Virus record (IMG/VR): IMGVR_UViG_3300010373_000003
Span: 1-64,000 of that record
DNA: 64,000 bases
From: a virus
Reading direction: 5' to 3' (one strand)
The position numbers and the translations under genes were made by a program. Under the pieces are notes generated by a model. That model did not search any database and was not told the DNA's origin. It saw nothing but the letters and a program-made list of their open reading frames with translations. Within the stretch, counting starts at the first letter, position 1. Each line of letters opens with the position of its first letter. This document shows positions 341-61,000 of this stretch, in pieces.

Positions 341-817
341 TTATTCTTGATAAGAATGTTCAGTAATAAAACTAGGTTTAGTATCAGTACTAGGAGAAGC
401 TACAAACCAACCATTAGCATCATATTGAGAAGATTTAAACTCATCAACATTAACACATAATATAGTATGAGCTTCTAATTTATTATTAGCAACTACAATA
501 GCAACGCCAGAACCATAACCTACTTTACATTTATTGTAATAGACGTATAACACTGATTCTGACTGCTGTACCTCCCCCGTAGAGGAATCACCCTCAATAG
601 ACTTTACTAGATCTCCATCAGATAGATCTTTAATATCATTATGAACTTCATTAACGACTTTATTAAAAGTACAACTAATCATACTCATAACCATAACTCT
701 ATCCATAACAGATAGTTGACTAATATTAACAGGTTTATAGTTCTTAGTAATAGTATGATAAACAGGTTTGTTATCAACACTAATAATATTTATTTTAAAA
801 TCTTTATTATTTTCCAT
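341..817 (-). CDS. two-domain hypothetical protein (158 aa; start revised to MENNKDF)
   Basis: The track ORF 341..1021 has a spurious hydrophobic N-terminal extension overlapping 807..1109; ATG at 817 overlaps the previous stop. Confidence 0.7.
   Translation of the reverse strand: MENNKDFKINIISVDNKPVYHTITKNYKPVNISQLSVMDRVMVMSMISCTFNKVVNEVHNDIKDLSDGDLVKSIEGDSSTGEVQQSESVLYVYYNKCKVGYGSGVAIVVANNKLEAHTILCVNVDEFKSSQYDANGWFVASPSTDTKPSFITEHSYQE
572..587 (-). repeat. dispersed 16-bp element, copy 1 (TTCCTCTACGGGGGAG)
   Basis: + strand CTCCCCCGTAGAGGAA; encodes SSTGE in the linker of 341..817. Confidence 0.9.
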
Positions 818-1109
818 AATCTTGGACTTTATAGTTAAGTAAATAAAAACTAGGATTATAATTAAACTCATCAATATCAAAGTCTTTGTACTTAATAACA
901 GCAACAAAATCATTAAATGATATAGATTTAAATACACCTTTATTATCTTTAAAGGAACCACTACTAAATACTTTATGATCTTCACTATCATCACCTGCAT
1001 AGAATCTAATAGATAAACCATAACGTTTAACTTTATCTTCTATATATTCAGTAATACATATCATAGGAGTATCAATAGGTATCTCTGTTCTATAAGGACT
1101 ATTTCCCAT
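807..1109 (-). CDS. hypothetical protein (100 aa; start MGNSPY)
   Basis: ATG at 1109 overlaps the end of 1099..1287; operon-like packing. Confidence 0.65.
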   Translation of the reverse strand: MGNSPYRTEIPIDTPMICITEYIEDKVKRYGLSIRFYAGDDSEDHKVFSSGSFKDNKGVFKSISFNDFVAVIKYKDFDIDEFNYNPSFYLLNYKVQDYGK

Positions 1110-1287
1110 CTTTAAATGCATTAGTAATACACTCAGCAAGTTCTAATAGTTCTTTCTTAGACATTTCCATAGAACATATATCTCCATCCCCACCAATGGT
1201 TAAAAGATATTCATTAAGGTTATCATAATGAGTAATATCAATTATACCATCATGAGTAATTAACTCAATTATCTTATTAGCTGCCAT
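1099..1287 (-). CDS. hypothetical protein (62 aa), paralog of 1290..1478
   Basis: IIELITHDGIIDI..MSKKEL versus IVSMTDDGVITV..ITKKEF. Confidence 0.7.
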   Translation of the reverse strand: MAANKIIELITHDGIIDITHYDNLNEYLLTIGGDGDICSMEMSKKELLELAECITNAFKDGK

Positions 1288-1289
1288 AA

Positions 1290-1478: not shown

Positions 1479-1694
1479 GAATAATTAATATTAATGGGTT
1501 ATAAATGATTTTAATGAGATTTAAGCCACTCAATTATAATTCTCGATTAATAACCTTACTATTACAGGTCAATTGATTGTGCAGCCCCGAGCAGCTATCT
1601 ATCGACAAATAGTAAGGTTATCAACCATTCAGGTTGTATACTATCCAGTATTTACCTTTAATATCATTAGTATCTTTAGCAATACTAATATTTG

Positions 1695-1766
1695 TTGTAT
1701 TAGCAGGATTCGAACCCACATCAATCGCTTAGAAAACAATTGCTCTACCAGTTGAGCTATAATACA
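1695..1766 (-). tRNA. tRNA-Arg (anticodon UCU)
   Basis: Minus strand folds as acceptor TGTATTA/TAATACA, D-arm GCTC-AACTGGTA-GAGC, anticodon arm ATTGT-TTTCTAA-GCGAT, T-arm GTGGG-TTCGAAT-CCTGC; followed by CAA rather than CCA. Confidence 0.85.
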
Positions 1767-1801
1767 AACCAACTTAACGATGAAAAGTTAGTTTATGGTA
1801 T

Positions 1802-2714: not shown

Positions 2715-3428
2715 CTATTTATTAGTTAAAGAGTCATGGATATAAGCAATTTCTTCATTAGAACAAACATCATTAATGGTCTTACCCATTTCTAAATGAA
2801 TGAACTTATCAATAGTCTTTTGAGCAGAAGCACTAAAACTAGCAAATGAAGCAGCTAAACAGTTTAAGAAGAAAGGCTCAGTATAAGAATACTCTTTAGT
2901 AAGAGTATCAACCTTAACAGAAAACTTATTCCACTTAAATGTAACAAACCTAGATTTACCTTTAATCTCTCCCTTTTGTAAAAGGTAATTAAGAACACCA
3001 AGACTAGTAAACCTACGTATCTCAGCATTGTTCTTAATAATAAGAGCAATTTCAACCATATGAGCAGGATACTCACCATTAATAGGAGGCAACTCTACAC
3101 CATTAGCTTTATTGTTAACAGGTTTATTGTTATGCTTAAAAGGTTGCTTAGTAGCAATAGCATTATGTTTAACTGGATGTTGTTTAGCAACATGAGTGTT
3201 ACTTACAACGTCTGCATCTGTATGATATACAGTAGCATCAGGCTGCGGTTTGTCTTCCTCTACGGGCAAGCTCTTATTGTCAACAACTTCAGGAGCTTTC
3301 TTATCAGTAGCAATAACCTTATCTACAATATCACTTTCAGTAATAGTAGACTTAGAAACAGCTTTAGTAGCTTTCTTAGCAGCAGGTTTAGTCTTAGTAG
3401 TGGCAAAAGTTTGATCAATTTGTGTCAT
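2715..3428 (-). CDS. hypothetical protein with Lys/Thr/Ala-rich low-complexity N-terminus (237 aa; start MTQIDQ)
   Basis: ORF track 2715..3497; start revised to the ATG at 3428 after an AT-rich leader. Confidence 0.75.
   Translation of the reverse strand: MTQIDQTFATTKTKPAAKKATKAVSKSTITESDIVDKVIATDKKAPEVVDNKSLPVEEDKPQPDATVYHTDADVVSNTHVAKQHPVKHNAIATKQPFKHNNKPVNNKANGVELPPINGEYPAHMVEIALIIKNNAEIRRFTSLGVLNYLLQKGEIKGKSRFVTFKWNKFSVKVDTLTKEYSYTEPFFLNCLAASFASFSASAQKTIDKFIHLEMGKTINDVCSNEEIAYIHDSLTNK
3255..3270 (+). repeat. dispersed 16-bp element, copy 2 (TTCCTCTACGGGCAAG)
   Basis: Antisense to its host gene; encodes LPVEE. Confidence 0.85.
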
Positions 3429-3659
3429 AACAATAACAATTTTAATATTAGTATAATTAAGAATAATATGATAAGCACCATGCAAACCATATAACATTTA
3501 AGGTACGAACTATATAATCAAAAGTGAAAATAATTAATATATTTTTATTAATACATGTCGCTCCATGAGCATGTTAAGTATGCTCAAAAGAACAATCAAC
3601 ATATAACAGTATAATTAATATAAATCAACTATATTTAATTTGATTATAAGTATAAATAA

Positions 3660-9245: not shown

Positions 9246-9261
9246 TTCCTCTACGGGGGAG
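9246..9261 (+). repeat. dispersed 16-bp element, copy 3 (TTCCTCTACGGGGGAG)
   Basis: Intergenic, about 45 bp upstream of the HU/IHF-like gene. Confidence 0.9.
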
Positions 9262-9304: not shown

Positions 9305-9829
9305 ATGAATGATACTAAGTCCAATGATATAGATAATATTAATACTGAATATAGTATGGTTGTTAGGACTATGCCTGATGTATTATATCATGTCTCTAAA
9401 GATCCTATGGATAGACTTATATGTGAGTCTATTATAGATAATCTTGAAGAGACTGCTGCTAATGCTGTATTAGCGGATAAAGTTGTCCAACTTCCTTATA
9501 TAGGATGTATTAGACGCAATCCTATTAAGTTAGCTATTAAAGCTCAACATATTAATTTTAGTGCTGCTAGAAAAGTAATGACTACTGATCAGTATAAAGA
9601 TCATGTTAGAGAAGTCATTATTGATGTTAAAGAAAATCAAATTAAACTAGATAAGAATAAGTCATTTCTTAAAAAGTTTAAAGCTAAGAATCAAAAGAAG
9701 TATGACTCTTTGTATATTAGAATAGGTAAAGGTTATGCTGATATGTATATTCAATCTCTTCTTATGTTTAAAGAGATTCCATTTGATATTGAAGTACAGC
9801 AACATTTTGATAATTTAAATGGTTATTAA
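9305..9829 (+). CDS. HU/IHF-like DNA-binding protein with helical extension (174 aa; start MNDTKS)
   Basis: IIDNLEETAANAVLADKVVQLPYIGCI resembles the HU helix-2/strand pattern; crAss-like phages carry IHF-like genes in the structural block. Confidence 0.55.
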   Translation: MNDTKSNDIDNINTEYSMVVRTMPDVLYHVSKDPMDRLICESIIDNLEETAANAVLADKVVQLPYIGCIRRNPIKLAIKAQHINFSAARKVMTTDQYKDHVREVIIDVKENQIKLDKNKSFLKKFKAKNQKKYDSLYIRIGKGYADMYIQSLLMFKEIPFDIEVQQHFDNLNGY

Positions 9830-12995: not shown

Positions 12996-13281
12996 ATATA
13001 GTCTAATATCATTTGGGTTAGGATTGCTAGTAGGTATGCTGGTTATAAGTTTGTTAGATAAGAAATTTGGTCCTACCGGAGAATTACTTAAACAACCTGA
13101 CACAACCTATAACAAAGTTAAACTTGATAGCATTAATGTTCAAATAGGTAAACACGATACCACAATTTATAAACTTAATATTAAACTTAAAGATGATGTT
13201 GAAAAGAGCTATCAATTGTCTGATAGTGCTACTGTTGATCTGTTCCGTAAACTTAGTACAGGGACAGATAAAGATAAGTAA
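12982..13281 (+). CDS. spanin-like membrane protein with N-terminal TM (99 aa; start MELNKY)
   Basis: Overlaps the endolysin stop; TM LISFGLGLLVGMLVISLL. Confidence 0.55.
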   Translation: MELNKYSLISFGLGLLVGMLVISLLDKKFGPTGELLKQPDTTYNKVKLDSINVQIGKHDTTIYKLNIKLKDDVEKSYQLSDSATVDLFRKLSTGTDKDK

Positions 13282-13618
13282 GCCGATTGTTCTCTCTACG
13301 GGGGAGATACTAAAATCAGATACGTCTAAAGTTACTATTCCAATTAGTTATATACGTGATGCTAATGCTAAACTTATAGAACGTAATTATCTTATTAAGA
13401 TTAATGCTGAACAAGATTCTGTTATTAAACTTAATAAACTTTATGCTAAAGAACAAGATGTTATTATTAAAGACTTTCAACTTAGATTGTATGAAAGTAA
13501 TATGTATAATAGTCAACTTGAAAAAGATATTATTAAACAGAGAAATAAAACTAAGATTTTAACAGGAGTATCTGGTGTTAGTATACTAGTTGTTATTATA
13601 TCTTTGTTTGTTAAATAA
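13193..13618 (+). CDS. spanin-like protein: signal peptide, coiled coil, C-terminal TM
   Basis: Overlaps the previous gene by 89 bp, reminiscent of Rz/Rz1 pairs. Confidence 0.55.
   Translation: MMLKRAINCLIVLLLICSVNLVQGQIKISKPIVLSTGEILKSDTSKVTIPISYIRDANAKLIERNYLIKINAEQDSVIKLNKLYAKEQDVIIKDFQLRLYESNMYNSQLEKDIIKQRNKTKILTGVSGVSILVVIISLFVK
13291..13306 (+). repeat. dispersed 16-bp element, copy 4 (TCTCTCTACGGGGGAG)
   Basis: 14/16 match; encodes LSTGE. Confidence 0.8.
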
Positions 13619-18462: not shown

Positions 18463-18478
18463 TTCCTCTACGGGGGAG
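18463..18478 (+). repeat. dispersed 16-bp element, copy 5 (TTCCTCTACGGGGGAG)
   Basis: Intergenic, between portal and scaffold-like gene. Confidence 0.9.
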
Positions 18479-21489: not shown

Positions 21490-22662
21490 ATGAATGAAAA
21501 TAATTCTGTAGGGGGTGGTCAATTTGCATTTGGTAAAGCAAATACTCCCGTTGAGAAACAGAAAGATAGTATTACCTCGCCCGTAGAGGAAGCAGATATT
21601 AGACAAACTATTAATACTGCTGTTTACGAAGAAGAACAAGAATCAGAAGATATTATGTCTTCTGAATATACTCATGAAGCTAGTATATCTATTTCTCTAG
21701 TTAAGAATTATTCATTATACCGTAGGGCTAATGATAAAGTTCTTCCTAAGAAGAGAGATTATATAGGTGGATCAGTTAGTGCTTCTCGTATTCTATCTTC
21801 AAACAAAGAAGAGGTTGAAAACTATTTTCCAACTATACTTGGTCTTAATGCTAGTCATCAAGATTTTACAATGAGACTTAAACAATATCTAAATAATATT
21901 CGTATAGCTGTAGATGAGCTAGGAATTAATTTAGATATTTCTTTTGTTTATCATCGTAAGTCTGATTATTATAAATTTAGAGACGCTGCGCAAAAGATTG
22001 AAGATGACTTTAATAAAGTTGATCGTCAGAATCTATCTAAGCTTAAAGCTGCTTTAAAAGATAAGATAACTAAACTGAACGTACTTGAAAGTACTAAACA
22101 TAAATATGGTTATCCTGTCAATGTAGATCATTATATAAGTTACAGACATTGTTTACTGTATGATGATATAGCTAAAGATGTCGCTATTATTAATAGCAAT
22201 ACTTCAGTTAGATTCTACTTTAAAGATGATCAGAGAGAAGAAGATAAACTTCGTAAATTCAGAGGTGAGGTTAATAAGGCTAAAGTTAACTATGTTGCTA
22301 CTTTATCTGATGATGTATTATTTGATGCAGTTTATATTCAGTATTTAGTCGAAGAGAGACAACCTGTTATTGCTGGACTTCTTGAGAAGAGAATGGATAG
22401 AGAAACTAAACTTGATAAATTTAGTGGAGAAGAACCTATTAAATTCAACAAGATTGTTAACTCTAAACATGTTAAACTTATCGGTACTATTGAATTACTA
22501 ATTGCTCATGGTCAATTACAACGTTCGCAGTTTAATCAGAATATTACTACAGATGAAGGTAACTTTATAGGTTCTAATATGAAGGAAGCTGTTGCTTGGT
22601 TTACTAACCCTGACAATAACTCTACTGTTGACGCTTATTACAATAAGTTAAAGAATACTTAA
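21490..22662 (+). CDS. crAss-type conserved protein downstream of MCP (390 aa)
   Basis: YGYPVNVDHYISYRHCL and FIGSNMKEAVAWF patterns; position. Confidence 0.7.
   Translation: MNENNSVGGGQFAFGKANTPVEKQKDSITSPVEEADIRQTINTAVYEEEQESEDIMSSEYTHEASISISLVKNYSLYRRANDKVLPKKRDYIGGSVSASRILSSNKEEVENYFPTILGLNASHQDFTMRLKQYLNNIRIAVDELGINLDISFVYHRKSDYYKFRDAAQKIEDDFNKVDRQNLSKLKAALKDKITKLNVLESTKHKYGYPVNVDHYISYRHCLLYDDIAKDVAIINSNTSVRFYFKDDQREEDKLRKFRGEVNKAKVNYVATLSDDVLFDAVYIQYLVEERQPVIAGLLEKRMDRETKLDKFSGEEPIKFNKIVNSKHVKLIGTIELLIAHGQLQRSQFNQNITTDEGNFIGSNMKEAVAWFTNPDNNSTVDAYYNKLKNT
21576..21591 (-). repeat. dispersed 16-bp element, copy 6 (TTCCTCTACGGGCGAG)
   Basis: + strand CTCGCCCGTAGAGGAA; encodes SPVEE. Confidence 0.9.
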
Positions 22663-35444: not shown

Positions 35445-36234
35445 GTTAGACAATGACTTTAATATAGATCATGGTGATTGGATACCTCGTGTTGGTGCGT
35501 GGATTATAGATGCTATGGGTCAGCTAAATGTTCTTCGTAAGAAACGTAGTAAAATAAAGCTAGATGTTCATAACTGTATAGCTTATTCTAATTGTCCTAT
35601 TAATAGTCCTAATCTTATAGTTACTGATTCTAATGGTTGCCCAATTGTCAAACATAAATCTAATGCTAGTGGTTGTTGTTCTTCCTCTACGGGGGAGGTA
35701 ACAAAGCTAGGTGATGTAACTCCCTCAACGGTAGATGCTATCTATAATCCTAATGCTGCTTATGTCCCAGATCATACTGTAGCTGAAACTGTCAATGGTA
35801 GTAATAAACCTCCTAGATATAATATTGTTAACTATGATAACTCTGGAGGACAACCTAGAAATTATGTTCTATTAGATGATAACAAACTTGAATTAAACTT
35901 TAATACAAGTTGTGTTTATGTTGAAACTGATGTAGTTGAAACTGTATGGAGTAAAACCTATGAATGCGATATTCCTGTTGTTCCTAATGTTGGTATTCTT
36001 ATAGAAGCTATTGGTTTTTATTGTATGTATAAAATGTTAACTCGTGGATATAAACATCCTGTATTTAATCTTAATGCTAGTCAATATGGAACTAATCCTT
36101 ATTATGAGTGGAAGACTCTAAAACCTGAAGCTAAGAGAGCTGTTACTATTGATGCTCAGGGTAATATACTGGTTACTGATGGAGGTCTATTTAAAAGTTC
36201 ATTCTTTATCACTACATTCCCCAATAGTAAATAG
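35401..36234 (+). CDS. tail tubular / ring protein
   Basis: Directly before the tail stabilisation gene; IPVVPN..LIEAIGFYCMYK. Confidence 0.6.
   Translation: MLNNTSISVEHIIAKLDNDFNIDHGDWIPRVGAWIIDAMGQLNVLRKKRSKIKLDVHNCIAYSNCPINSPNLIVTDSNGCPIVKHKSNASGCCSSSTGEVTKLGDVTPSTVDAIYNPNAAYVPDHTVAETVNGSNKPPRYNIVNYDNSGGQPRNYVLLDDNKLELNFNTSCVYVETDVVETVWSKTYECDIPVVPNVGILIEAIGFYCMYKMLTRGYKHPVFNLNASQYGTNPYYEWKTLKPEAKRAVTIDAQGNILVTDGGLFKSSFFITTFPNSK
35682..35697 (+). repeat. dispersed 16-bp element, copy 7 (TTCCTCTACGGGGGAG)
   Basis: Encodes SSTGE. Confidence 0.9.
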
Positions 36235-39300: not shown

Positions 39301-40818
39301 GTATTTAACACTGCTAATAATAGAGTTTTTAGAATTAATAATCATGATCATTATTATAAGTTTGAGGTTCCAAATGATAAACCTCATACTTATCAGAATG
39401 ATGTTCCTTTTCTAGCTTATTTACAATTACCTATATGTACTGATGTATTCTTTGAAAGTAAGTCTTATAAGAATAGTCCTGTAGGATTTATGTCTTTAGT
39501 TAAAGGTTCAGATGAGAACTCTAATAAGTTTGCTAAAGGTACTATGGTTACTCCTGTTAATAGTATTGATTTATTTGAAAATAGACAAGGTTCTGCTGAT
39601 CAGTTTAATCCTAAGACTTATGTTAACTTTAGAGAAGATTTAGTTTCTGTTGAACAATTTGATAAGACTATTCGTAGATCTAATGTTATACAGAATGAAA
39701 GTAGAGTTAATGGTTGGAGAACTTTCCCTATTGAAGGTTATAAAAATATAACTGAGAATAAAGGAAAGATTACTAATATAATTGGAATAGGTACTGTTCT
39801 ACTTGCACATACTGAACATAGTATGTTTATGTTTGATACTGATAATACTCTTAAGACTGAAGGTAAAGATATTCAATTATTACAACCTGATGCTTTTGAA
39901 GTATCGTACAATGAAGTGTTTACTTCTGATAAAGGTTTTGGTGGTTTACAAGATGATAAATCATATATTGTTAATGACTTTGGTTATATATTTTATAGTG
40001 ATGATACTAATCGTATTTATCGGTTTGACGATAAGCAGTTAGATAACATGGACGAAGATATAATACAATGGCTTAAAAAATATAAACCTTTTAATGTTAG
40101 GATGGCTAACGATAAAGAAAATAATCGTATACTTATGAAATTCGATTATCTTGTTACTGGACTAACTAGAAGTACTGTTATTAGTTATAATTATAATGAG
40201 AAGAATTTTGTATCTCAACATCCTTATTACTTTGACGAAGCTTTTAATACTAAAGTTGGTTTATACTTACAATGCACTAATGATCATAATGGATGCTCTT
40301 TACATAATTTTGATTATAAAGGAGATGTTTATGGTAGATATGATAATATCAAAGGTACATTAGGTCAATCAATTGTTGCTCATTCTAAACTTAGTTTTAT
40401 TATTAATGATTCTTATAGTATTGTTAAGTTCTTAGAGTATATTACTTATAAACTTACTAAGTATGCCGAGTATTCCGGTACTGATTTTACTAACTTGCCC
40501 GTAGAGGAATACAAGACTCCTTATGCTGGATATACACTTGCTGTATATAATAATAATGTTAATACTGGTGTATTAAATATAACTACTGACATTGAAGCAA
40601 ACAAAAACATGTTTGATGTTATTGACAAACCTTATTGGGATTTAGGAGTTTGGAACTTTAGTTATCTTCGTAATAGAATAAGTGAACTAAATAATGGAGT
40701 TAGTGATGATAATATAACTAGATTATTTGGTAACTATTTCATTGTTGAATTTGTATTTGATAACGAGGACGGTCGTAAGATTGATTTTGAAGAATTAAAT
40801 TATAATGTTTCTGAGTAA
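36358..40818 (+). CDS. tail stabilisation / muzzle protein (P22 gp10-like)
   Basis: 1486 aa, beta-rich; KLNLNKHP start, NRLYISNY, GWRTF..YKNITENKGKITNI, FGNYFIVEF. Confidence 0.75.
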   Translation: MSVNTKLNLNKHPKDNDNLSLVNAQAVKISHDGSCITSEDSIKENSFIHNYLSAFYGTNPVIGYKIVGIIPCNNELVIVVKPSNTVDDADIFRYQEPINDNIEKMYCAYGGLGSPNRFKYQGGLIKGAFTYNVENSLVIAISEYGNSNIRIPLRTINLGNSDDPTVYNDKDLSNSKLYISPEVRLPSVNNLDYTAGSAYKGWYYMFIRYKINSVDYTQWYSIGPPIYIDTLEQYQIIRYPFGRDTKFAASALNDIVSPAWPDDGYGAGASDYFSNSSDIAKETFKVDLYFNKNIDYTKYQIGVICASKSYTKAFRTADIYLDKNYNEGFNVRIQKYVLDNKSLIEYNVSSFITDNGNYFNSKNVINYKNRLYISNYLEDNANNDDIPQSIIDSINVNLYTSYVRDYGLVYDTALIVNWVTGANQYDTYKFTEIPLARFLNISEETIVTISASGHTTKISKAGQFYITSGNSVPGYAYIQLREPGPLGSVSVTNYGVQPYSDYIYLAIADVNNNPQSNFTFDPVRSAINGGMMYTNTNIDFDSRKKQSCLIPGEVYNFNIHFTNKYSGATNGYRIPNNTKWIVNGEPNREIIPISFNLRVNSETVTYYAAMDVDSNVAREDFTVNERYSINVNGIRFFKQYNTFGTSPTLSSEVTSPSDLQSCVAAFKEFFSSYNSDKFSTTKWYQVSYGPGGDKFHLFINNNGDRLFKIPTIESFTGAWDGFPDEVAPFKQYNLHTLMRASFDNIEIPEGYDGFYISYEKFESQARATGLLTRNDFRTQDWIVKGGNTVQLGTRNSAKSDKMFFYSSTYDISDTIKLDYSIMRIEAINPFKKEDIPEWDYFQRNNTFNFLHDMNKPQVASYFEDVQRTYAMPEYKIAVADSVADDRMGVGTALQIKDSYNLFASYVTSAGIHDRLKVYRVTLLNTTRDIYMSDSKTLIRLGDVVYRSEGAPTNYKYSQYINSGYNGHYTYDGIPIYENAGVVFNTANNRVFRINNHDHYYKFEVPNDKPHTYQNDVPFLAYLQLPICTDVFFESKSYKNSPVGFMSLVKGSDENSNKFAKGTMVTPVNSIDLFENRQGSADQFNPKTYVNFREDLVSVEQFDKTIRRSNVIQNESRVNGWRTFPIEGYKNITENKGKITNIIGIGTVLLAHTEHSMFMFDTDNTLKTEGKDIQLLQPDAFEVSYNEVFTSDKGFGGLQDDKSYIVNDFGYIFYSDDTNRIYRFDDKQLDNMDEDIIQWLKKYKPFNVRMANDKENNRILMKFDYLVTGLTRSTVISYNYNEKNFVSQHPYYFDEAFNTKVGLYLQCTNDHNGCSLHNFDYKGDVYGRYDNIKGTLGQSIVAHSKLSFIINDSYSIVKFLEYITYKLTKYAEYSGTDFTNLPVEEYKTPYAGYTLAVYNNNVNTGVLNITTDIEANKNMFDVIDKPYWDLGVWNFSYLRNRISELNNGVSDDNITRLFGNYFIVEFVFDNEDGRKIDFEELNYNVSE
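40494..40509 (-). repeat. dispersed 16-bp element, copy 8 (TTCCTCTACGGGCAAG)
   Basis: + strand CTTGCCCGTAGAGGAA; encodes LPVEE. Confidence 0.85.
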
Positions 40819-45558: not shown

Positions 45559-48500
45559 ATGGATATTAATGACTTTTTAAATAACGGAGTTACGGTTAAG
45601 AACCCTAATTATAAGAAACCCACTAAGAGAGATCCTAGTGGGTCTCCTCGTTTTATACAATCTGGTGATTACAATGCAGCTGTTGATCGTGATAGTCGTA
45701 TTGGTGGATTTCTTGCTGAAAATAGTTATGATCTAACAGGTCTTAACAATGACGAGAATAAGTATGCTGATTATGATGTCCGTATTAACCCAGTTAATAC
45801 TAAAGATGAACTTGATCAACAACGTGCTAAGAACCAATCTGCTTGGGAACAAACAGGTAGACTTGTTACGCAAGCTGTAGGTAATGAAATAGTTCTAGGT
45901 ACTGCTTTAGGATTATCCAATCTTGTAGATATGGGTGTTAATATTGGTAAAGAGGCTGGAAAAGATGATTATACTAATCCTTTTAGTACTTTCTTAGAAG
46001 GTAAACAAGATGAGATTAGAAAAGCTTTTGAGATATACCAAGAGAATCCTAATGAGACTTTTCAAGTTGGAGACTTTGGATGGTGGGCAGGTAATGCTGT
46101 AAGTGTTGCTTCTACATTATCTATGCTTATACCTTCAATGGCAGTTACTAAAGGTTTAGGTGCAGCTGGTAAATTTGCTAAACTTGAAAGACTTAGTACT
46201 GGTATTGCTAAAGCAGCTAGTGGTGTAGGTCTAACAAAGAATACTGCTACATTAGCTAGAGCTATTAACTCTGGTGCTGAAATAGGTACCGCAGCGTTAC
46301 TTAGTAGAACAATGGAAGGATATCTTGAAGCTAGAGGTGTTTATAAGGAAACTTATGATAAATCTTTAGGTAAACTTGAATCTATGACTGTTGATGAGAA
46401 AGCTAAGCTTTTTAAGAATAATCCTCAGTTTGTTGGAATGTCTAATGAAGAAATGGCTAGTAATATGTCTAGTTTTTCTGCTGATGAAACCTTTAAGAAT
46501 GATTATGCAATGTTACTATTTGATATTGCTCAATTTAAAGCTTTAGGTTCTATGTGGAAAGGTGTTGCTAATAAAGCAGTTAACTCTACTCTAAGAACAG
46601 CTAATAGAAATGCTATTGCTGGACTTGCTGATGATGGAGCAGCTGCTATTGGAAACATGGGATTCTTTGCTAAACGTGCTGAGATTATTAAACATGCTAT
46701 AAAGAATCCTATGAGTAGTCTTACAGCTATTCAACTTAGTGAAGGTCTTGAAGAAGGTTATCAAGGAGTTCAAACAGAGAAAGGTAAAGAGATTGCTGAA
46801 AAGATGCTTGATCCTAATTTTAATGCTAGAACTCTTGAAAGTTATCTTAAAGATGGTGCTATATGGGAACAAGCATTTTGGGGAGTAGTTGGAGGAATGG
46901 CTTTCCAATCTATAGGTACTGGTGTTGGTAATTTAGCTACAGCTGTTAAAGGTAAAGTTAATAAACGTACTATGTCTGAAGAAGATTATGCTCTTTCTCA
47001 AATGACTGATGAAAAGATCAGAGAACAAGAGATTGTAGGTCGTCAGGCTCGTATGCAAGACTTTACAGAGAGTATGCAGCTTCTTAATAATGGTAAGAAT
47101 CCTTTTGGTTATAAGATTGATCCTGATACTAAACAACCTATTCTAGCAGACGGTAGTAAAGTCAATGAAGATGTTAGTCAAGAAGAAGCTGAATTGCTTA
47201 AGACTCAACTTACTAATGATTTTGTTACTAATATGGTATTAGATGCTACTGATAAAGGTAATTACGATCTATTCAAAGAATATGTTACTGATCAGAACTT
47301 TGATAAGTTCTTTCAAGATGCTGGACTAGAGTCTAACTCTGGTGATAAATCTTTTAGTAGAATGTTAGTTGATAAGATGGATCAAACATATGAAGAATAC
47401 AATGGTGCTCTTTATGATGTTATGAATTCTATTAGTGTAGAGAATGAAAGTGTGGCTAAGATTGTGGCACGAAGTATTGCTAGAAGAAAACTACAAGTAT
47501 CAGACTTATATAATAGTTCTGATGATCTAGCTAATCAAATAGCAACTAACGCAGATACTACTGATTATATAGATTATGAAGAGAATCAAAGAGTTAAATA
47601 TGTAAAAGATCGTATAGCTGAAATAGATAAAAAAGAACAAGGTCTTCAAGAAATGTTAACTAATAAACAAATTAGTTCTCAAGCTGTAGATCAAATTATT
47701 AAAGAAAATAATATTAGACGTAATCAACTTCTAGCATTTGCTTCTACTGGTAATATGTTTGGTAACCCTGATGTTATAAGCAATATCTTAAGTTCTAATA
47801 TTAATGATGCTAATACTGGTGAATTCTTAGCAGAGTTTAATAAGTTCTTAGCAACTATTGATCAAGATGTTAAACCCGGTACTCCTAAGAAGTCTGTTCA
47901 AGATATTGTTAAAAAGAAGATTGAAGTAGATGATCATTTAGATTATATTGAGAAAACATTACCTACTACACAATCTAACTATCAAACAGAATATGATGAT
48001 GTTGCTAGAAATGTAGATAGACTTACTGTTGAAAGATATGATAAAGCTGTAGACATTGTAGGAGAATATATAGAATCTCAACCAGATCTAGATACAGCTC
48101 ATAACAATGTTATGACTAATAATGTTCCTGCTAATATAAAGGAACAATTAGATATACTTAAACTTGGACATCATAGTACTTCTAAATATACTAGTCAGAT
48201 TAATTCTATATTCAGAGAAGTTAACAATGATAGAACAGCAGCTGCTGCTGAAGCTAGAAATGTTAATGTTGATAATACTGTTACTAATGATACTACAGCT
48301 GAAAATGATATACTTGATATAGATGGTGTAGTTGCTGAAACTGACAATAGAGAATCTGTCACTGAGTCTTCCTCTACGGGGGAGGTTATACAATCAGATG
48401 TATCAAAACCGGCTGCTGTTGAAGAAGTAGTTAATCCTGAAACATTTATTGCTCCTTTTGACATAGTTGAAGAAGTTGCTTCTTTAGATAAAGCTACTGA

Positions 48501-51500
48501 AAGTGTTATCAATGATCAAACTAATGATTTTATATTAGACAATGATGCAAGAGCTGTAGGTTTAGCAAGTAGTATTACTTTTAATCTATTTAAAACTTCT
48601 CGTAATCTATTTGATAATCTAGAAGGTAAAGATGTTAATAGTTCTGAATTTAATAATATTGTTGATATAGTTGCTGATGATTTATTTACACAAGGTGTAT
48701 CTAGAGGTTATACTAGACAAGCTGCTGTAGATGGTATTAGAATGGCAATGAATATGATACATCGTAGACTTAGTTCTAAGAATATTAGTGGTGCTGATAT
48801 GTTTAAAGTATTAGCTGATCAGCTTGCTAATAAACAAAGAGTTGAAGTTGATAGTGAAGGTAAAGCTTCTACTACTACTCTTATTCCTGATAGTGAATTT
48901 AATCAAGTTATTGATCAGTTCATTGATAATTATATTCAAAATAGAGGAGTATATACTGTTAAAGGATTTAAGACTATTATTAATGTTGAAGATTTGTTTA
49001 GAGAACTATTAAATAATGATGGTATTACTTATGAGCAAGCTAAACATGTATTCTTTAATATAGCTGATTATATCAGAGCAAATAATCCTAAGTATATATT
49101 TATTAATAAGACTGATCTTAATAAGAATCTTAAGACTCCTAGTACTTTTTTTAATAATCTTATTAATAATAAATCAACTGTTGAAACAGTAGATAGTTAT
49201 ATGCATATAGCTGCTCCTTCTAATAAACCTGAAGGTTATGATAAAGCTGTAAATGAAGCTATTAATGGAGAACCAGTTGTTATTAGTTATTTTGAAGGAG
49301 AACGAGGTACTAGTAATAACTCTATTTCTATTAAAAGAAATGGTATTGAGATTGGTTATCTTGGTTCTGTTCAACCTAATCCTATTAATACTGGTTATAA
49401 ATTAAAGAGACAGAATCAAGGTTTTGTTTATGATCTTGTTAATAACAATGGTAACATTGAAAGTAATTTAGATAAACTATTTATACCTCTTATTAATAGA
49501 GAAACTACTAATTATTCTTATTTAATGGATATTGCTTATAAGCAATTTGCTTATGAAAGTGCTATTAAAAATGGATCTTCTAGTCAAGATATTACTTCTG
49601 ATGAAGTGAGAGACATTGTACATAATGCTATGATTAAATCATTAGTTGCTTCAGGAGATATTAAAATACCTGCTGATAAGATTACTGATAAGATGAAGGC
49701 TAAGTATATACTTAATCAAATTAATAACATTATCTTTTATGATAATGCTGCGATTACTACTCCTTTAATATTAGAGAGTTATGCTTATTGGAAGTCTTCT
49801 ACTTTTAATAATTATGTTAATACTCATAAGATACAACAAGGTCTTGATACTAACAAAAAGATTAATACTAAGCTTGTAAATGTTGCTACTGGTAAAGTAT
49901 TATTAGATAATACTAATCATAATATTTCTGATATAGGTTTTACTTATGAACAAAACCCTATTATGATAGTAGATGCTAATGGTAATATTATCAATGAAAA
50001 AGCTAATACTAGTTATAGCAATGTAGCTGGATTTGAAGTAGGCACTATGGGTATGTTGATTACTGATAATCCTAGTGCTCCTATTATAGCTTTATTTACA
50101 GAATCTAATAATGTTTCTAGTAATAAAGAACTTGCTAATAGAGTATATTCTGAACTTACAGATTTACTTACAGGTTTTCAAAATAGAGAAGTTAGTTTTG
50201 ATAAACTAGCTACTTCATTAGGAGATATGTTTAGTGGTCCGGGTATTAGAAGTAATAATCTATTTAGTGGTTATAGTGTTATTAAAACTAATGATAGAAT
50301 AGCTCTTAATATACAAGGTCGTAAAGGAGAGTATAATCTTATTGTTCATAAGTTTGAAAAAGGTTCTAATACAGAAGGAACTGGTATTACTCATATACCT
50401 AATGGTGATAAGAGTAAAGCTAATAGTTCTGTTACTACTAGTAAATCTTTTAATAATGCTATTGCTAAAGAGATTGTTTCTAATCTTACTTTTAATAAAA
50501 CATTCTATGCTATTAACAATAAGAATGTTGATAATGATAAATCTAATCAATATCTGTATAAAGAAGGAGGTAAACTAATAATTGAAATAGGAGGTAAGAA
50601 AGATAGTTATAATAGTTTTGGTCAGTTTGTTTTGACTAATAATGCTTTTAAGACTAATCAAGGTAAAAATAAAGATGGTGGTTTCTTTGACACAACTGAT
50701 GCTGTTAAGTCACTTTACATCAATACTGCAATCATTACCTCGCCCGTAGAGGAAACACCATTGACAGATCGTAATAGAACTGCTTCTGATGTTATTAAAT
50801 CAGCTACTAAGACTGAGAGTGTTAATACTTCTGAAATACTAAGTTTAGCAGGAGTTGAAGAAGATAAGATTGCTGTTCTTACTGGTACTAATCAGTTTGG
50901 TATAGAACTTATTCCTAAGGAATCGTACTTTGATAATCGTGCTACTAAAGCTGAAGCTTATTATAGTAAAGGTAAAATGTACTTTACTAATAAAGGTGCT
51001 AATAATATTAGAAGAAGTCCTAATAACCTTATGAGACTTCTTATTCATGAAAATCTTCATGCTAAGTTTGAAGAACAAGGTTTGTTTCAACAAGCTGGTA
51101 TTGTAGATGATCTTATGAATACTTATAATAGTTTTATTGAAGCTGTTAATAATGATACTACAAGTGCTGAAGTTAAAGTTATTAAAAATTGGATTGAAAC
51201 TAATAAATTTAATCCTATTGATTATATTAGTACTTTATCTGTCGAACAACAAAGAGCATGGATTAATCGTAGTGATGCTGATAAAGCTGCTCAATTTGCT
51301 GAAGAATGGTTAGTTGAAAGTCTTACTCAACCTTCTATTATTAGATATCTTAATAATACTATTTATACTGGAGGAGATGTTTCTGTTGAAGGAATTGATA
51401 ATAGTGCTAAGACTATATGGCAACGTATTATAGATGTTCTATTAAAATTATTTGGTAGAAATAGTGGAAATATAAAAAATAATACTATATTAGCACAACA

Positions 51501-55000: not shown

Positions 55001-58000
55001 AATACTCATAATCTAATAGATCGTGCTCACTATAATGGTGATAGTGTTGTAAAAGATGGAGTACTTACTGGTAATTTCTTTAACTTTATTAGACTATTTG
55101 AAACACAAGGTTATAAAGCTAATGAAGAGATTAAGAATGCTTTCTTCCTCTACGGGGGAGATACAGCTAACGGTATTGATCCACTGCTCGTTAAGAATAA
55201 GAAAGGTGATCTAACTCTTAATATTAATAGAAAAGATCTTATTGCTATTAATAATAATCATATAGAGCTTAGTATATCTGATAATAACTTAGAAGTTATT
55301 GATTCTGTTGTTGAGAATTGGCTTAATAATTATTATAATGAAGTACTAGATAAAACTTCTCAGTTTAATACTATTATTGAAGATAGATATTCTAATAATG
55401 ATATTGTTGACTATGCTGTTAACAATGCTATTATGGAAATGAACTTTGATGATGTGTTTGAAGGTGATAGTAAGTTCTATAAAGGACCTCAGGATTTCCT
55501 TAAGAGAGCAAAAGAAGTTCAAGCTGCTGGTAAAGCTTATACTGGTTTTAATATTAATGAAGCTATTGGTGGTCCAGTTCATCCTATTAAAGATGCAAGT
55601 GGTGGTGAGATTCCTATAATGGTTAATGGAGTTGAAGTTGCTAAGGCTAGAAATGGTTTTAAAGGTGTTACTATTTATAATACCGTTAGACCTTCTCAAA
55701 GTGCTGGTCAAATAAAACAAGAACTTGTAGGTATACTTACTCCTAGTGTTGGTAAGACTGAAGCTAATCGTATTGCTACTGAAATATCTCAAGGTTATTT
55801 TGATTCTACTAAAGTCAATGATGCTCAATCCTATATTACTCTTGATGAGTTTATAGCTAGACGTCATGCAGATGGTACATTGAATGATTATCAAGATTTA
55901 CTTGCTCAATTAACTGATGATAAAATCAGTGTTGGAGATATGAATCTTAAAGGTATTAATGCTCGTATTCAAGTACAGAAGAACTTCTATTTTGATAAAC
56001 AGTTTGATGATAATACTGGAACCTTTTATCCTAGACAGATTAAGAATGCTGAATTTGTTCTTATTCCTAAGTTGATTAAAGGTACTGATCTTGAAACTCT
56101 TTATAACATAATGAAAGCTAATGGTGTTGACCAAGTTAATACTGTTGAAGCTTCTAAAGCTGCTAAAAAGAATATACTTACTTTTTGGGATAATCAAGGT
56201 GTTGCTAATGCTGAAGCGTTTGATGCTAGTCTTAAAGCTGATAACAATATAGCTATTGAAGACTACTACTATCAGTATCTTTATAAACAACAAGATGTTG
56301 CTGATCATATGGTTAATGAGAAGAACAAAGCTGGTATTCAAATCATGAAGAAAATCATTGATAATGCTAATGCTGAAGTTCAAGGAGATATTGATAATTT
56401 CTTTAATAGCTATGTTGCTAATATTAAAGATGACTTTAATATGCTTCTTAATCGTATGGGTTGGAGAGTTGAAAATGGTTCTTTAGTTGATAGTAGTGGT
56501 AAGACTAATGCTGATGGTAAGAATGTACTTCAATTTGAAGATTTTTATAAGAAAGCACGTGTTGAGGCTCAACGTCTTGGTATGGATTCTAACTTTATAG
56601 AATATCTTACTCCTGATCAGTTTGGTTCTCCTGTTATGCCTAACTATATGAACAATGTCTCTTCTAAGTTAGAAAGTATTGCTCAAAGTATATTTAATAA
56701 TGGTGTTACTAGACAGACTCTTCCTGGATGGCATGCTGCTCAGGTTACTAGTGTTGGACATGGTGTTCCATCATTAGGAGAAGATGGTGTATGGAGAACT
56801 CTTAAGTATCACCCTCAAGTTACTAGAGAAGATGGTACAGTAGTTCAAGAAGCTTATGCTGAAGTTATGCTTCCTAGATGGAGTACTTTAATTCCTAAAG
56901 ATTATGATATTTCTAAGTTAGAATCTGAAGGTATTGATATTCATTTAGGTTATCGTATTCCTACTGAAGGTAAACAATCTATTAGTAATCTAAAAGTTGT
57001 TGCTTTCTTAGATGAGGTTTATGGTTCTACTATTATGGTTCCTGATGAATGGGTAACTCAAACAGGTAGTGACTTTGACGTTGATAGTGTTTATGGTATT
57101 TCTCATGAAATATATAAAGACAGAGAGGGTACTATTAAGAAAGTACAGTTTGATAACTCTACAGAAGTTAAAGATGTTGAACGTAGATATGTTAATTATA
57201 TTAATGGAGCTATAGAACATCGTGTAGATAAAGATATTATACCTGATGAGTTTATAACTGATAAAGTTAATGAAGCTAGAGATCAAATTAAAGACTTAGA
57301 TATTGTTAGAAAAGAATCTAAATATCTTGGTGAATTGATTTCTAATCATGGTAGTATTTATAGACAACTTCCTACTGAGGTTCAAGATCAAGTTAAATCT
57401 ATTAATAGAAGATTTAGAACTGGTAATATATATGATAGATACAATGCTTTAGCTGCTACATTTGAAGTACTATCTTCTCAGGAAACTGGAGAACTTAAAG
57501 ATGTTTATGAAGAATTTGGTTCTTATAGTGAGGCTATTGCTAATGCTTATGAATATATTAAAAGTATAGATACTGATTCTATTCCTAAGTTTAATAAGTC
57601 TGAAGTTATTAAAGGTATATTTGAAAATGCTCGTATTGAGTATTTAAATAAAGTTAAGAAAGCTGCTAAAGCTTCTAATCTTGTTACTTATGAAGAGTTT
57701 GCTAATTGGTCTATAGAAGATCAGAATAGTCGTAAGGCTCGTAATAATAGGATATTAGATAGTATGATTAATGTTATGAATAATAGTAATTCTCGTGAAG
57801 AGAACTATTCTCGTAGTAATTTTGATGATCTATCTAATGCTATGAAGAAAATGAATGCTCTTCGTGGTGCTTCCTCTATTGTTCGTAGTGCTTATAATCC
57901 TTTAGATCAAGTTGATTTTATGGAGAATGCTATGAGTGGTGCTACTCTTAAAGCTTTCTCTGTTACTAGAGATACTTTTAATTCTGTTAATAACTATACA

Positions 58001-61000
58001 AAATCTAAACTAGGTGAAGGTCATGAAATTAAAGTTGAGTATGATCTTAATCAATATGATATTAAACATTTAAATAGCGCTTATAATGGTGTACAACTTG
58101 ATAAATCTCGTAATGTGGCTATTGTTATGCATAATAGCTTGGCTAATAGTAATAACAACAGGAACGTTGTTGGTAAAATCCTTACAGTTTATAGTTCTCA
58201 AACTACAGCTCATATTCTAGATGCTGTTAAAGAAGGTACTATTTTCAATGAGAATGATTATACCTTTGGAACATTTAAAACTCTTATTGATGTAGGTATT
58301 GATTATGAAACTGCTATTGGTTTCTTAATGCAACCAGGAATTACTAAGATTGTAGATGCTTACTTCCAAAGTAAAAGTATTTATATTAATAGTACTTCTA
58401 ACCCTATTAATGTTGCTATTAAGTCTATAGCTACTGATCTAGGTATTACTATTGGAGGACGTGCTATTGATGACTATACCCCTGTTAAGAGTGTAGTACA
58501 AAGATTGAGTACTTACCCGAGATTGCAAATGGCGTATAGACAGCTGTTTGCAGCTAATCTAGGATATAATAATACTATTGACGTACAATCACAAAACCTT
58601 AATGGTTTAATGCTTCAGAACCGCTTAAAAGGGGTTGAAATAACTAATACTTTAACATTAACACTAGATCAACAACAGTATCAAAATGCTGCTTTTGATT
58701 TAGCTATGATTGCTAACTTTGATAAGTATCGTAAGACTACTCGTAATATTGAAGCTTTAGCTAGAGTTAGTAATCCTGATAGGTTTGGTGCTAAGCAAAC
58801 AATTAGAGGAACTAGAGTTACTTTAAATAATATTGCTAAATATGCTACTGATCCTAATGATATAGTTGGTGAAACTATAATGGTTGGAAATAAGAATATT
58901 ATTCAATCTTTATACCCAGGTTTTAATACTAGAGAAGGTATAGATATTACTAATAGTTCTTATCCATATCTTGCTGCGTTTTTAAAGTTTGCTACTCAAC
59001 CTAGTGTTGAAGCTAATAGTCAGTTGTTTCCTACTGAAAGTAATAGTTATAATGCTATTACAGATACTGTTCAAGCTAGAATGGGTATTAATTTTACTGA
59101 TGAACAGTATAAAGAATATAAACAATATATGATTTCTAATGTTTATGCTGGTGTTCCATTTTTAACATCACCTTTAACATTGAATGAATATGGTTTAATT
59201 ACTTTAGATAATGTAGCTATTGAAGCTGAAGTTAATTTAAATAATCAATATTGGGATGTTGAACGTTCTAGAATATTTGGTTACGATGTTACCCAAAGTG
59301 GCAATATTACTATTAAAGATATTAATAATCCTAATGAGGAAGAAGTATTTAATTTTAATCAACTTACTCCTGCTCAGAAAGTTATATGGATTCAACGTAA
59401 TTTTAATGAAGGTAGAGGTGTATTTGATTTCTTAGATGTTAATACTTTTAATCAGTATGAGTTTAAGAATAAAGGATTTAGTAGTCAATCTATTAAATAT
59501 AGTGATCAAATTGATGATATTGAAGAAGTGTATGTTGCTTTTAGAGATAGCTTCTTTAATAAGAATCCTTTAGTTAGACTTGCTACTATTGACTTAATTA
59601 AGTATTCTTTTGTTGCTGAAGGGTTTAAATTTAAACGTGGAAGTATTAGTAAAATTATTACTAATGATACGTTGTATTCTAATCTAGAAGATAAAGGTAT
59701 TAATCTAATTGAAGCTATACAGCAACAATTTATGATTTATAATAATCCTCTTGAAGCTACTACTCAAAAGTTTATTGATAAGTTTATACGTAGTCATAGT
59801 GAACTTGTTAAAGAAGTTTCTATTCCTAAAGGTAAAACTGATAAACAAGGTAATGAGAATATTGGTCGTAAGTTTAATAGACAAATACAAGGAGAGAATA
59901 TAGTTTTTATTCCTTTTGCTGAGTCTACTAAAGAGTTACTAGAACATCTTAACATTATTGAAGATAGTCCTAAAGGTTATGTTAGAATTGGTAGATATAT
60001 CAATGATACTCAACGTAGAACTACTTTATATAAAGTTACTAATACTAGACAAGGTGTTTATTTAACTCCTTTGAATATACTTGAACGTAATGAGACTTCT
60101 GAGTATTCAGTTAATGCTAAAAATAACTTATATAAAGCTACTGAATATTATGATGCTATAATTAATTTATCTGTAGATAATGGAGTTCCTGTTAATGAGT
60201 TACTTAAAGATGGTAAAACTGTTGAACAACTTAATATTCTTAAAGATCAGTTTACTATAACTCCTCATAAGTCTAAACATATAATTGAAAGTGTTGAAAA
60301 CACTAATGAAGTTATTAGAGTTATGCAGTATGGTACTAATATTGAGCAAGCTGAGACTGCTAAGTTTGTATCTGACATTGTAGATTACATAACTTCCCCT
60401 GTAGAGGAAGCAGGTAACTATGGCGTTATTAAAAATGATAATGGTTTTATTAATTCTCTTATCCCTCATGGTGTTTCTGTTATTCAGAACATACCTAATG
60501 GTGAAGATATTATAACTGTTAAGATTACTAAACATACTAAGAAGAATGGTTTAAGTAAACAATTTGAATATGTACTTAAAGGAGACAAACGTGGAGATCT
60601 TGCTAAGGTTAAACCTGAAGAAAGAAAGGCTTTACAGAACTCTATTGATGCTAAAAGTATTAGACCTACATTATATAAGATTGAAAGGGTTACCAGTGAA
60701 CAAGAAAGAGAGAACTACGAAGAACTTAGAAAACAAGTAGAAGATCAAGCTGCTTCTCAAATGAATGCAGTTACTAATCTAATTGAAGACTTTGATGTAG
60801 ATGTTGTTTTCAATTATACTGAAACTGATAAGGTTGCTAAAGATATATTTAATGAACTTAATAAACGTGCTTTATCTAATGATGATAAACGTGCTGTTAA
60901 ATTTAAGAAAGCTATGGATATAGCAGGTATAGATAGGACTAGTGCTAATTCTATACATGATAATAAGAGAAATATATATACTTCTGCTGCTAAGTATTAT

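What the first reader, a model, noticed from the sequence alone, without database searches (positions are those of the whole stretch)
572..60409. Variant of the 16-bp element tracks its orientation relative to transcription
Seen: all seven copies co-directional with local transcription (572, 9246, 13291, 18463, 35682, 48369, 55145) carry TACGGGGGAG. All five antisense copies lack the intact form: GGGCAAG at 3255 and 40494, GGGCGAG at 21576 and 50739, CAGGGGAA at 60394. The rule holds across the strand switch, where 572 and 3255 are flipped relative to the + strand. Coding need does not explain it, since TCC CCC GTA would encode the same SPV as the observed TCG CCC GTA. Only the sense form closes the full UUCCUC-UACG-GGGGAG RNA hairpin. 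Inference: two functional site classes, or an RNA-level role for the sense class.
Basis: partly seen in the sequence, partly recalled or inferred. Interest (0 to 1): 0.72.

Follow-up and report, generated by a model that had tools for sequence, protein, structure and literature searches.

The report
Orientation-linked spellings of crAss-phage motif
A 16-base DNA word that crAss-like gut phages keep evenly spaced on both strands has two spellings in this genome that mostly follow gene direction, but the rule vanishes in 17 related phages, so it is a lineage quirk of an undescribed DNA signal, not an RNA hairpin.

Summary
The window is the first 64 kb of a 92.9-kb crAss-like (Intestiviridae-type) phage. 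All 7 co-directional copies in the window carry TACGGGGGAG and all 5 antisense copies do not (Fisher p=0.0013).

Genome-wide there are 18 copies. The rule weakens but survives (p=0.013 to 0.0003). One clear exception is an intact copy at 84919, antisense inside a helicase-like gene. An intergenic inverted pair at 66.2 kb also breaks the rule if it is scored by its flanking genes.

In 17 related genomes the intact form is equally common in both orientations (26% each, odds ratio 1.00). One lineage shows the reverse tendency. One genome uses only the "C" spelling.

The RNA-hairpin idea fails. The outer stem pairs do not covary, flanks are not complementary, and full hairpins are no more frequent in sense copies.

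The element is a DNA-level, strand-specific, phage-private signal with core CCTCTACGGG. It is evenly spaced on each strand, kept at orthologous positions even when the reading frame changes, and spelled in lineage "dialects". Its reader is unknown. Earlier agents of this scan reported the same motif system in at least eight other crAss genomes. The orientation split is new but lineage-specific: this genome and one relative.

The parts
572..587 (-). G-form copy (exact 16-mer), sense in minus-strand ORF 341-1021, read as SSTGE
3255..3270 (+). C-form copy (GGGCAAG), antisense in minus-strand ORF 2715-3497, read as LPVEE
9246..9261 (+). G-form copy, co-directional, 44 nt upstream of an in-frame ATG at 9305 (probably intergenic)
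13291..13306 (+). G-form copy with TCTCTC 5' part, sense in ORF 13193-13618 (LSTGE); orthologous copies in 9 relatives
18463..18478 (+). G-form copy, intergenic between the portal-like gene (ends 18319) and the next gene (starts 18633), co-directional
21576..21591 (-). C-form copy (GGGCGAG), antisense in ORF 21490-22662 (SPVEE). The orthologous copy is G form in 8 relatives and is flipped to sense in G019
35682..35697 (+). G-form copy, sense in ORF 35401-36234 (SSTGE); orthologous copies in 13 relatives with varied 3' spellings
40494..40509 (-). C-form copy (GGGCAAG), antisense in the 1486-aa ORF 36358-40818 (LPVEE); the orthologue is G form in most relatives and C form in G008, G009 and G019
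48369..48384 (+). G-form copy, sense in the 2112-aa RNAP-like ORF 45559-51897 (SSTGE)
50739..50754 (-). C-form copy (GGGCGAG), antisense in the same 2112-aa ORF (SPVEE)
55145..55160 (+). G-form copy, sense in the giant 4532-aa ORF 52028-65626, in a different frame (FLYGG)
60394..60409 (-). Variant copy (TACAGGGGAA, CpG lost), antisense in the giant ORF (SPVEE via TCC CCT GTA); the same spelling is the genome-wide dialect of relative G016

Best explanation
The 16-bp element is this phage's version of a family-wide, phage-private DNA signal of Intestiviridae-type crAss-like phages. It has an invariant core CCTCTACGGG and a less constrained 3' part (positions 13-16) that differs between lineages as dialects. 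It is read on the DNA in a strand-specific way by an unidentified factor that is most likely phage-encoded. My guess is a nicking, priming or recombination-type reader acting during replication or packaging. This guess is inferred, not shown. This sorting is a lineage-specific state, not a conserved rule, and it has nothing to do with closing an RNA hairpin. Shown: the DNA-level selection, the polarity and even spacing, the dialects, and the absence of a family-wide rule. Inferred: the kind of reader and the reason for the sorting.
For: The core 10-mer occurs 8-21 times in 18 of the 19 crAss-like relatives queried, against 0-1 for the reversed control word. G016 has none and carries the TACAGGG dialect. 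The core is no more frequent than the control in 43 Bacteroidales genomes. Copies sit at orthologous places in proteins whose flanks have diverged; median protein identity between these genomes is about 53-58%. Some copies sit in a different reading frame, for example FLYGG against PLRG and SPVEE against LPRRG. One is flipped in orientation in G019. The word is built from the rarest codons of the genome: CCC 3%, TCC, TCG and ACG 1%. Orientation alternates in 191 of 271 neighbour steps against 139.7 expected. Same-strand spacing is regular (CV 0.58 against 0.88). Pairs closer than 700 bp are inverted 50 times and direct twice. Dialects change in concert: G016 has TACAGGG at all copies in both orientations, and crAss002 has CTCCTYTAYGGGGGAA. 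Position 13 is G in 71% and C in 26-28% of copies in both sense and antisense coding copies, and almost never A or T. The intact form has odds ratio 1.00 between orientations in relatives.
Against: No reader, nick, modification or transcript end has been observed, so the mechanism is a guess by analogy. The sorting in this genome is too clean for pure drift: 15 of 17 scored copies have G on the sense strand at position 13 (binomial p=0.002), and six antisense copies share the same G-to-C change. Weak family-wide signals suggest the two orientations are not fully equivalent. Antisense copies are more heterogeneous in 13 of 18 genomes (p=0.02). Sense and antisense copies differ in G016, G019 and crAss002.
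Confidence: 0.6

Rival explanations
1. There are two functional site classes tied to direction. Copies facing with transcription and replication and copies facing against it do different jobs, or are read with different strength or by two readers. Each lineage evolves its own pair of spellings for the two classes.
For: G000 has G forms co-directional and C forms counter-directional (p=0.013-0.0003), and the two classes also differ at positions 20-21. G019 repeats the tendency and has flipped one antisense site to sense G form. G007 shows a reverse split, with CGGA-type copies sense and GGGGGAA antisense (p=0.018); G004 and G009 lean the same way but not significantly. crAss002 has TACG in 10 sense and 3 antisense copies, and TATG in 4 sense and 10 antisense copies. 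Antisense copies are more heterogeneous in 13 of 18 genomes (Wilcoxon p=0.02). The distance test excluding G000 gives a combined p=0.0095.
Against: Most genomes show no split at all (G001, G002, G003, G005, G006, G008). The genomes are related, so the combined p-values are inflated. Positions 17-18 in the distance test are confounded by codon phase, because sense and antisense copies sit in different fixed frames. The helicase-gene copy is an intact G form in antisense orientation here and in 11 of 16 relatives that keep that site; the other five carry their own spellings.
Confidence: 0.2
2. One reading: sense copies act in the mRNA as a UACG-tetraloop hairpin for stability, pausing or processing, and antisense copies are disabled versions.
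For: The G-form 16-mer folds at -7.0 kcal/mol with a C(UACG)G loop, and flanks extend it in some copies (-14.9 at 9246). C forms fold at -0.7, and the reverse-complement transcripts at -1.4 to -2.8.
Against: In relatives a full 6/6 stem occurs in 23% of sense and 26% of antisense copies. Stem pairs 1/16, 2/15, 3/14 and 4/13 are paired in only 58-79% of copies, and positions 2 and 15 do not covary. Positions -1/+17 to -6/+22 are not complementary above chance in 351 copies. G001 uses the non-folding GGGCAAG in 10 sense copies. Antisense copies are conserved at orthologous sites and evenly spaced on their own strand. There is no Rfam family at any copy.
Confidence: 0.05
3. The split is a by-product of coding constraints or strand-biased mutation, with no bearing on the element's function.
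For: Sense and antisense copies occupy fixed, different reading frames, and apparent flank conservation is a codon-phase effect. In crAss002 the TATG variant costs Val-to-Ile in the antisense frame but Thr-to-Met in the main sense frame, so AT-biased mutation would be tolerated mainly in antisense copies (inference). The sense strand is G-rich, with GC skew about +0.2.
Against: Position 13 is a wobble base in both main frames, and GGG/GGC and TCC/TCG are about equally used. The G007/G009 lineage has the opposite base on the sense strand. In relatives pooled there is no sense-strand preference.
Confidence: 0.12

Closest known systems
Nick-associated motifs of phages tf/LUZ24-like (TACTRTGMC), phiKMV-like and T5 (PMC3517423, read)
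   Same: A short phage-private consensus present about 10-15 times per genome. Positions are similar in related phages. The spelling differs between relatives (TACTGTGAC against TACTATGAC), and the authors suggest co-evolution with a nickase. Copies lie inside genes. The function is enigmatic.
   Different: In tf, T5 and phiKMV-like phages all sites lie on one strand only. Here both strands carry an evenly spaced series. No nick has been shown here. The crAss word is longer, with 10-12 invariant bases.
Chi sites read by RecBCD/AddAB (own knowledge)
   Same: A polar, strand-specific word that is over-represented and useful only if met in the right orientation. That would explain an even series on each strand.
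   Different: Chi is 5-8 nt, is defined by the host enzyme and is enriched in the host chromosome. This core is not enriched in 43 Bacteroidales genomes, and it differs between phages of the same host genus (crAss001 against crAss002).
DNA uptake sequences (Neisseria DUS, Pasteurellaceae USS) and their dialects (own knowledge)
   Same: A 9-12-nt core with lineage dialects, in both orientations, written into coding DNA in preferred frames, with inverted pairs between convergent genes.
   Different: Those sequences serve natural transformation of bacteria. No analogous uptake step is known for a phage genome. USS/DUS copies are not reported to be evenly spaced per strand.
REP/BIME elements with Y and Z types in alternating orientation (own knowledge)
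   Same: Sequence variants of one repeat are tied to orientation, and copies alternate in orientation.
   Different: REPs are about 35-bp palindromes confined to extragenic transcribed DNA and are mobilised by RAYT transposases. This word is not palindromic, lies mostly inside genes at orthologous sites, and no such transposase was seen.
Stable C(UNCG)G tetraloop hairpins in phage T4 intercistronic RNA (own knowledge)
   Same: The G form can close a C(UACG)G loop.
   Different: There is no stem covariation. Half the copies are antisense. Many dialects cannot fold.

Membership tests
Phage nick-site motifs (T5, phiKMV-like, tf) | All copies on one DNA strand | tested here: not met
   10 plus-strand and 8 minus-strand copies in this genome, and roughly equal numbers in most relatives. 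In tf all 14 are on the top strand.
Phage nick-site motifs (T5, phiKMV-like, tf) | A physical single-strand interruption at the motif in virion DNA | not testable with these tools
   Needs virion DNA, for example denaturing gels, primer extension or long-read signal.
Phage nick-site motifs (T5, phiKMV-like, tf) | Phage-private consensus, positions shared by relatives, spelling co-varying with lineage | tested here: met
Chi sites | Word set by the host RecBCD/AddAB and over-represented in the host chromosome | tested here: not met
   0-7 copies per 2-8-Mb Bacteroidales genome (one genome has 15), never above the reversed control word. Different words occur in crAss001 and crAss002. The true host of this phage is unknown.
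Chi sites | Polar action, so that orientation matters | tested here: inconclusive
   Even spacing per strand and alternation fit a polar signal, but no activity was tested.
DUS/USS-type uptake signals | Over-represented short word in both orientations, in coding DNA in preferred frames, with dialects | tested here: met
DUS/USS-type uptake signals | Read by a DNA-uptake receptor during transformation | not testable with these tools
   No such process is known for phage DNA.
Structured RNA hairpin (UNCG tetraloop stem-loop) | Stem pairing maintained across copies and relatives, with compensatory changes | tested here: not met
   Outer pairs are 58-79% paired, positions 2 and 15 do not covary (p=0.18, wrong direction), and flanks are not complementary. 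No Rfam hit.
Structured RNA hairpin (UNCG tetraloop stem-loop) | Restricted to the transcribed orientation | tested here: not met
   148 of 346 copies in relatives are antisense and equally often intact.
crAss-like middle/late promoters (phi14:2 type; bioRxiv 10.1101/2020.03.07.982082) | Intergenic, sense-oriented, with -35/-10-like blocks upstream of genes | tested here: not met
   About 80% of copies are inside ORFs and about 40% are antisense. The paper reports promoter hits that are mostly intergenic and nearly all sense.
Mobile mini-elements (MITE, REP, RPE-like inserts) | Copies at non-orthologous places, seen as insertions relative to homologues | tested here: not met
   Copies align in register with orthologous proteins across up to 17 genomes, with diverged flanks and no flanking repeat structure.

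The most novel reading that the evidence does not exclude
The unknown reader of the crAss-phage motif works directionally with respect to replication or transcription. Copies facing with and against that direction are functionally distinct classes that lineages spell differently: G against C at position 13 here, the reverse in the G007/G009 lineage, and TACG against TATG in crAss002. That would point to two readers, or to a leading/lagging-strand-specific process such as site-specific priming or nicking on both strands. No such process has been described for any phage.
Probability: 0.15. Interest if true: 0.75.

Novelty: new variant of a known kind. Interest (0 to 1): 0.45.

Why it matters
crAss-like phages are the most abundant viruses of the human gut, yet how they replicate and package DNA is largely unknown. 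A 16-base word is kept against codon usage, at the same gene positions, in genomes whose proteins are only about 55% identical, and it is evenly spaced on each strand. That marks a cis-acting process nobody has described. My searches by sequence and by topic found no paper. This finding asked whether the spelling variants reveal the mechanism. The answer narrows the options. The element is not an RNA hairpin, position 13 needs only a G:C pair, and the orientation split is lineage-specific. The split still gives a practical handle. crAss002, a cultured relative with its own two spellings, is the obvious test system.

Tried and rejected
- **Extended 28-bp element.** In G000 the flank looked conserved (rTA...aTCa). 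Pooled data show this is codon-phase composition. It is strongest in antisense coding copies, has 3-base periodicity, and is absent in intergenic copies.
- **Codon-usage explanation for G against C at position 13.** Rejected, because TCC is about as common as TCG, and GGG about as common as GGC.
- **GC-skew or mutation-bias explanation.** It fits G000, but the G007/G009 lineage is opposite and the pooled data are flat.
- **Host Chi-like or host-chromosome signal.** Rejected.
- **Promoter reading.** Rejected by position and orientation, and by comparison with the published phi14:2 promoters.
- **Literature by sequence and by topic.** Nothing on this motif.
- **Very close relatives of G000.** A 21-mer specific to its C-form copies found none in IMG/VR. 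The nearest full genomes share only about 83-85% major-capsid identity.
I compared G016, which has a changed dialect, with G000, G017 and G019. This gave only small unannotated ORFs, a weak UDG-like ORF and Tad3-like ORFs. Nothing is interpretable as a sequence-specific DNA binder.
- **PHROG annotation of the ORFs that host the copies.** Hits were dNMP kinase, ligase and primase. There were no hits for the others, and no common theme.
- **Similarity of the 572 copy plus flank to the 16S rRNA 341F region.** Judged coincidental by eye and not pursued.
Full report
**What the window is.** The window is the first 64 kb of a 92,895-bp virus record. The terminase and portal genes match crAss-like phages at about 75% nucleotide identity. 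Gene order follows that of Bacteroides phage crAss002, Intestiviridae. Genes run on the plus strand from about 7.5 to 65.6 kb; these are structural genes and the giant RNA-polymerase-like genes. They run on the minus strand from 65.8 kb around to 6.9 kb. GC content is 30%, and GC skew follows gene direction.

**The observation.**
- TACGGGGGAG occurs 7 times against 0.00 expected.
- All antisense copies lie in one frame, x-(S/L)-P-V-E-E.
- Sense copies use two frames, SSTGE or FLYGG.
- Position 13 is a wobble base in the main frames. TCC (24 uses) and TCG (18) are equally rare, so coding need does not explain the variant.
- The G form folds at -7.0 kcal/mol as RNA and the C forms at -0.7.
- Within the window the association gives Fisher p=0.0013.

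**The rest of the genome.** Six more copies lie beyond the window.
- Obeying the rule: 75834(-) and 80087(-) are sense G forms, in a dNMP-kinase-like and a primase gene. 78242(+) is an antisense CAAG form in a ligase gene.
- A clear exception: 84919(+) is an intact G form lying antisense in the minus-strand ORF 84028-85470, read as YSPVEE. My first gene list had dropped this ORF.
- An ambiguous pair: 66214(+) G form and 66291(-) CAAG form are an inverted pair 77 bp apart, between two minus-strand ORFs just past the point where the two gene blocks converge.
- Depending on how the pair is scored, the genome-wide association has p=0.013, 0.0009 or 0.0003.

The rule is real in this genome but not perfect.

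**Relatives.** I scanned IMG/VR for the word and for the major capsid protein, and assembled 16 related genomes in full (G001-G012, G016-G019) plus crAss002.
- Of the 19 crAss-like relatives queried for the exact core 10-mer, 18 carry it 8-21 times against 0-1 for the reversed control word (one search gave 14-24 copies per genome for the 16-mer with up to 2 mismatches). The exception, G016, has none and spells the word differently.
- Pooled over the 17 assembled relatives, the intact TACGGGGGAG form is found in 52 of 198 sense copies and 39 of 148 antisense copies. That is 26% each, odds ratio 1.00.
- Position 13 is G in 71% and C in 26-28% of copies in both orientations, and almost never A or T.
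G007 shows the reverse (p=0.018), with G004 and G009 leaning the same way. G001 uses GGGCAAG for nearly all copies in both orientations.
- G019 resembles G000. Its antisense copies orthologous to 40494 and 78242 are C forms. The copy orthologous to 21576 has been flipped to a sense G form. The helicase-gene copy stays an intact antisense G form.

The split is a property of the G000/G019 lineage.

**The RNA hairpin.**
- In 339 copies the inner two pairs are fixed and therefore say nothing. The four outer pairs are paired in only 58-79% of copies.
- Positions 2 and 15 do not covary (p=0.18, in the wrong direction).
- A complete stem is present in 23% of sense and 26% of antisense copies.
- Positions flanking the word are not complementary above chance in 351 copies.
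- No Rfam family matches any copy.
- Antisense copies are as well conserved as sense copies.

The RNA-level reading is rejected.

**What the element is.** Several independent results show selection on the DNA itself.
- The word is made of the rarest codons of the genome.
- Copies lie at orthologous positions in proteins whose flanking residues have diverged. Median protein identity between G017 and each of G000, G016 and G019 is 53-58%.
- At some orthologous positions the word sits in a different reading frame, and at one it is flipped.
- Apparent conservation beyond position 18 is a codon-phase artefact.
- Orientation alternates far more than chance: 191 of 271 neighbour steps against 139.7 expected, with none of 5000 shuffles reaching that.
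- Neighbours closer than 700 bp are inverted 50 times and direct twice.
- Same-strand spacing is much more even than random: mean CV 0.58 against 0.88. For the G000 plus strand, CV is 0.33 with p=0.0005.

These results fit two independent, evenly spaced, strand-specific series.

The word is also private to the phages.
- The core is no more frequent than its reversed control in 43 Bacteroidales genomes.
- A 15-mer scan of 596 Gb of prokaryote genomes gave only scattered single hits.
- Spellings change in concert within a genome. G016 has TACAGGG at every copy in both orientations. crAss002 has CTCCTYTAYGGGGGAA. crAss001, in another family, has an unrelated 9-mer 27 times on both strands.

Concerted change argues for a reader that co-evolves with its sites.

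**Mechanism.** None is shown.
- Published crAss-like promoters are intergenic and sense-oriented, which excludes a promoter role.
- The nearest described systems are the nick-associated motifs of tf, phiKMV-like and T5 phages. They share privacy, conserved positions and lineage spellings, but lie on one strand only.
- Chi and DUS/USS share polarity or distribution but fail on host enrichment or on biology.
- I commit to a strand-specific DNA signal read by a phage-encoded factor during replication, recombination or packaging, with nicking or priming as the most likely chemistry. I rate this about 0.6 as a class of explanation and much lower for any single chemistry.

**Why the spellings are sorted here.** I cannot say.
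- Pure drift is unlikely. Six antisense copies share the same G-to-C change, and 15 of 17 scored copies have G on the sense strand at position 13 (p=0.002).
- Codon usage and GC skew do not explain it.
- There are weak hints that orientation matters elsewhere. Antisense copies are more heterogeneous in 13 of 18 genomes (p=0.02). Sense and antisense copies differ in G016, G019 and, at position 9, in crAss002.
- These tests are confounded by codon phase and by the relatedness of the genomes.
- I therefore keep "two directional classes" as a 0.2 rival and as the novel case.

**Earlier notes of this scan.** Follow-up agents reported the same motif system in at least eight other crAss-like genomes: evenly spaced per strand, with dialects, reader unknown. 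First-stage notes on this genome mention the alternation and the 66-kb pair. I reached the same picture from my own computations. The orientation-by-spelling question is the new part. My answer is that the split is real but lineage-specific.

Noticed in passing
L396:2214-2306 (genome 66214-66306, just beyond the window): An inverted pair of the motif (G form, then C form on the other strand) is 77 bp apart, at the junction of the two convergent gene blocks. It encloses three tandem 9-bp units of the form (T/C)(T/A)AAGA(C/T)(G/C)(G/A). A close inverted pair near this junction is present in almost every relative, with a spacer of 25-163 bp, and in crAss002 at 64738/64774. It is a candidate terminus, origin or bidirectional terminator.
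   Followed up: partly
L256-L260 (relative G016): Every copy of the motif in this genome is spelled TACAGGG (CpG lost), in both orientations. This is a concerted dialect change. The same spelling is the odd copy at window 60394. G016 also has the lowest GC content (27.8%) and gave no hit to a weakly UDG-like ORF present in G017, G000 and G019.
   Followed up: partly
L271:12425-12440 (relative G019) against window 21576-21591: At the orthologous place in the orthologous protein the motif is flipped: sense PSTGE instead of antisense SPVEE. G019 has 12 plus-strand and 4 minus-strand core copies, so it departs from the usual strand balance.
   Followed up: partly
L174 and L175 (Bacteroides phage crAss001): A different 9-mer, CTTCTGGAG, occurs 27 times against 0.36 expected, on both strands and throughout the genome, often as convergent pairs 0.5-1.8 kb apart. 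It may be an analogous signal in Steigviridae.
   Followed up: no
L397:28-1470 (genome 84028-85470, minus strand): The motif copy in this helicase-like gene is kept in antisense orientation with TTCC at its 5' end in all 16 Intestiviridae relatives that have the site, even those whose dialect is TCCC. The exact TTCCTCTACGGGGGAG form is in 11 of them. The flanking peptide IYSPVEEHRYG is also conserved, so protein and DNA constraints may coincide there.
   Followed up: partly
window, whole (codon usage of ORFs of at least 150 aa): Codon bias is extreme: codons ending in T dominate (for example CCT 84% of Pro, ACT 79% of Thr, GTT 69% of Val). A visible share of all CCC, ACG and TCC/TCG codons in the genome belongs to motif copies.
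   Followed up: yes
window 1694-1766 (-): A single tRNA-Arg(TCT) gene lies in the minus-strand block (ARAGORN and Rfam).
   Followed up: no
window 1-123 and genome 92773-92895: The first and last 123 bases of the record are identical. Relatives show 55, 99, 119 and 127 bp, which are k-mer-like lengths. These are probably assembly overlaps of circular or concatemeric assemblies rather than true terminal repeats.
   Followed up: no
L262:3600-4385 and L262:5160-5897 (relative G017): Two neighbouring ORFs match Pfam Tad3, a Thoeris inhibitor (E=8e-35 and 3e-7). They suggest an anti-defence island in the relatives.
   Followed up: no
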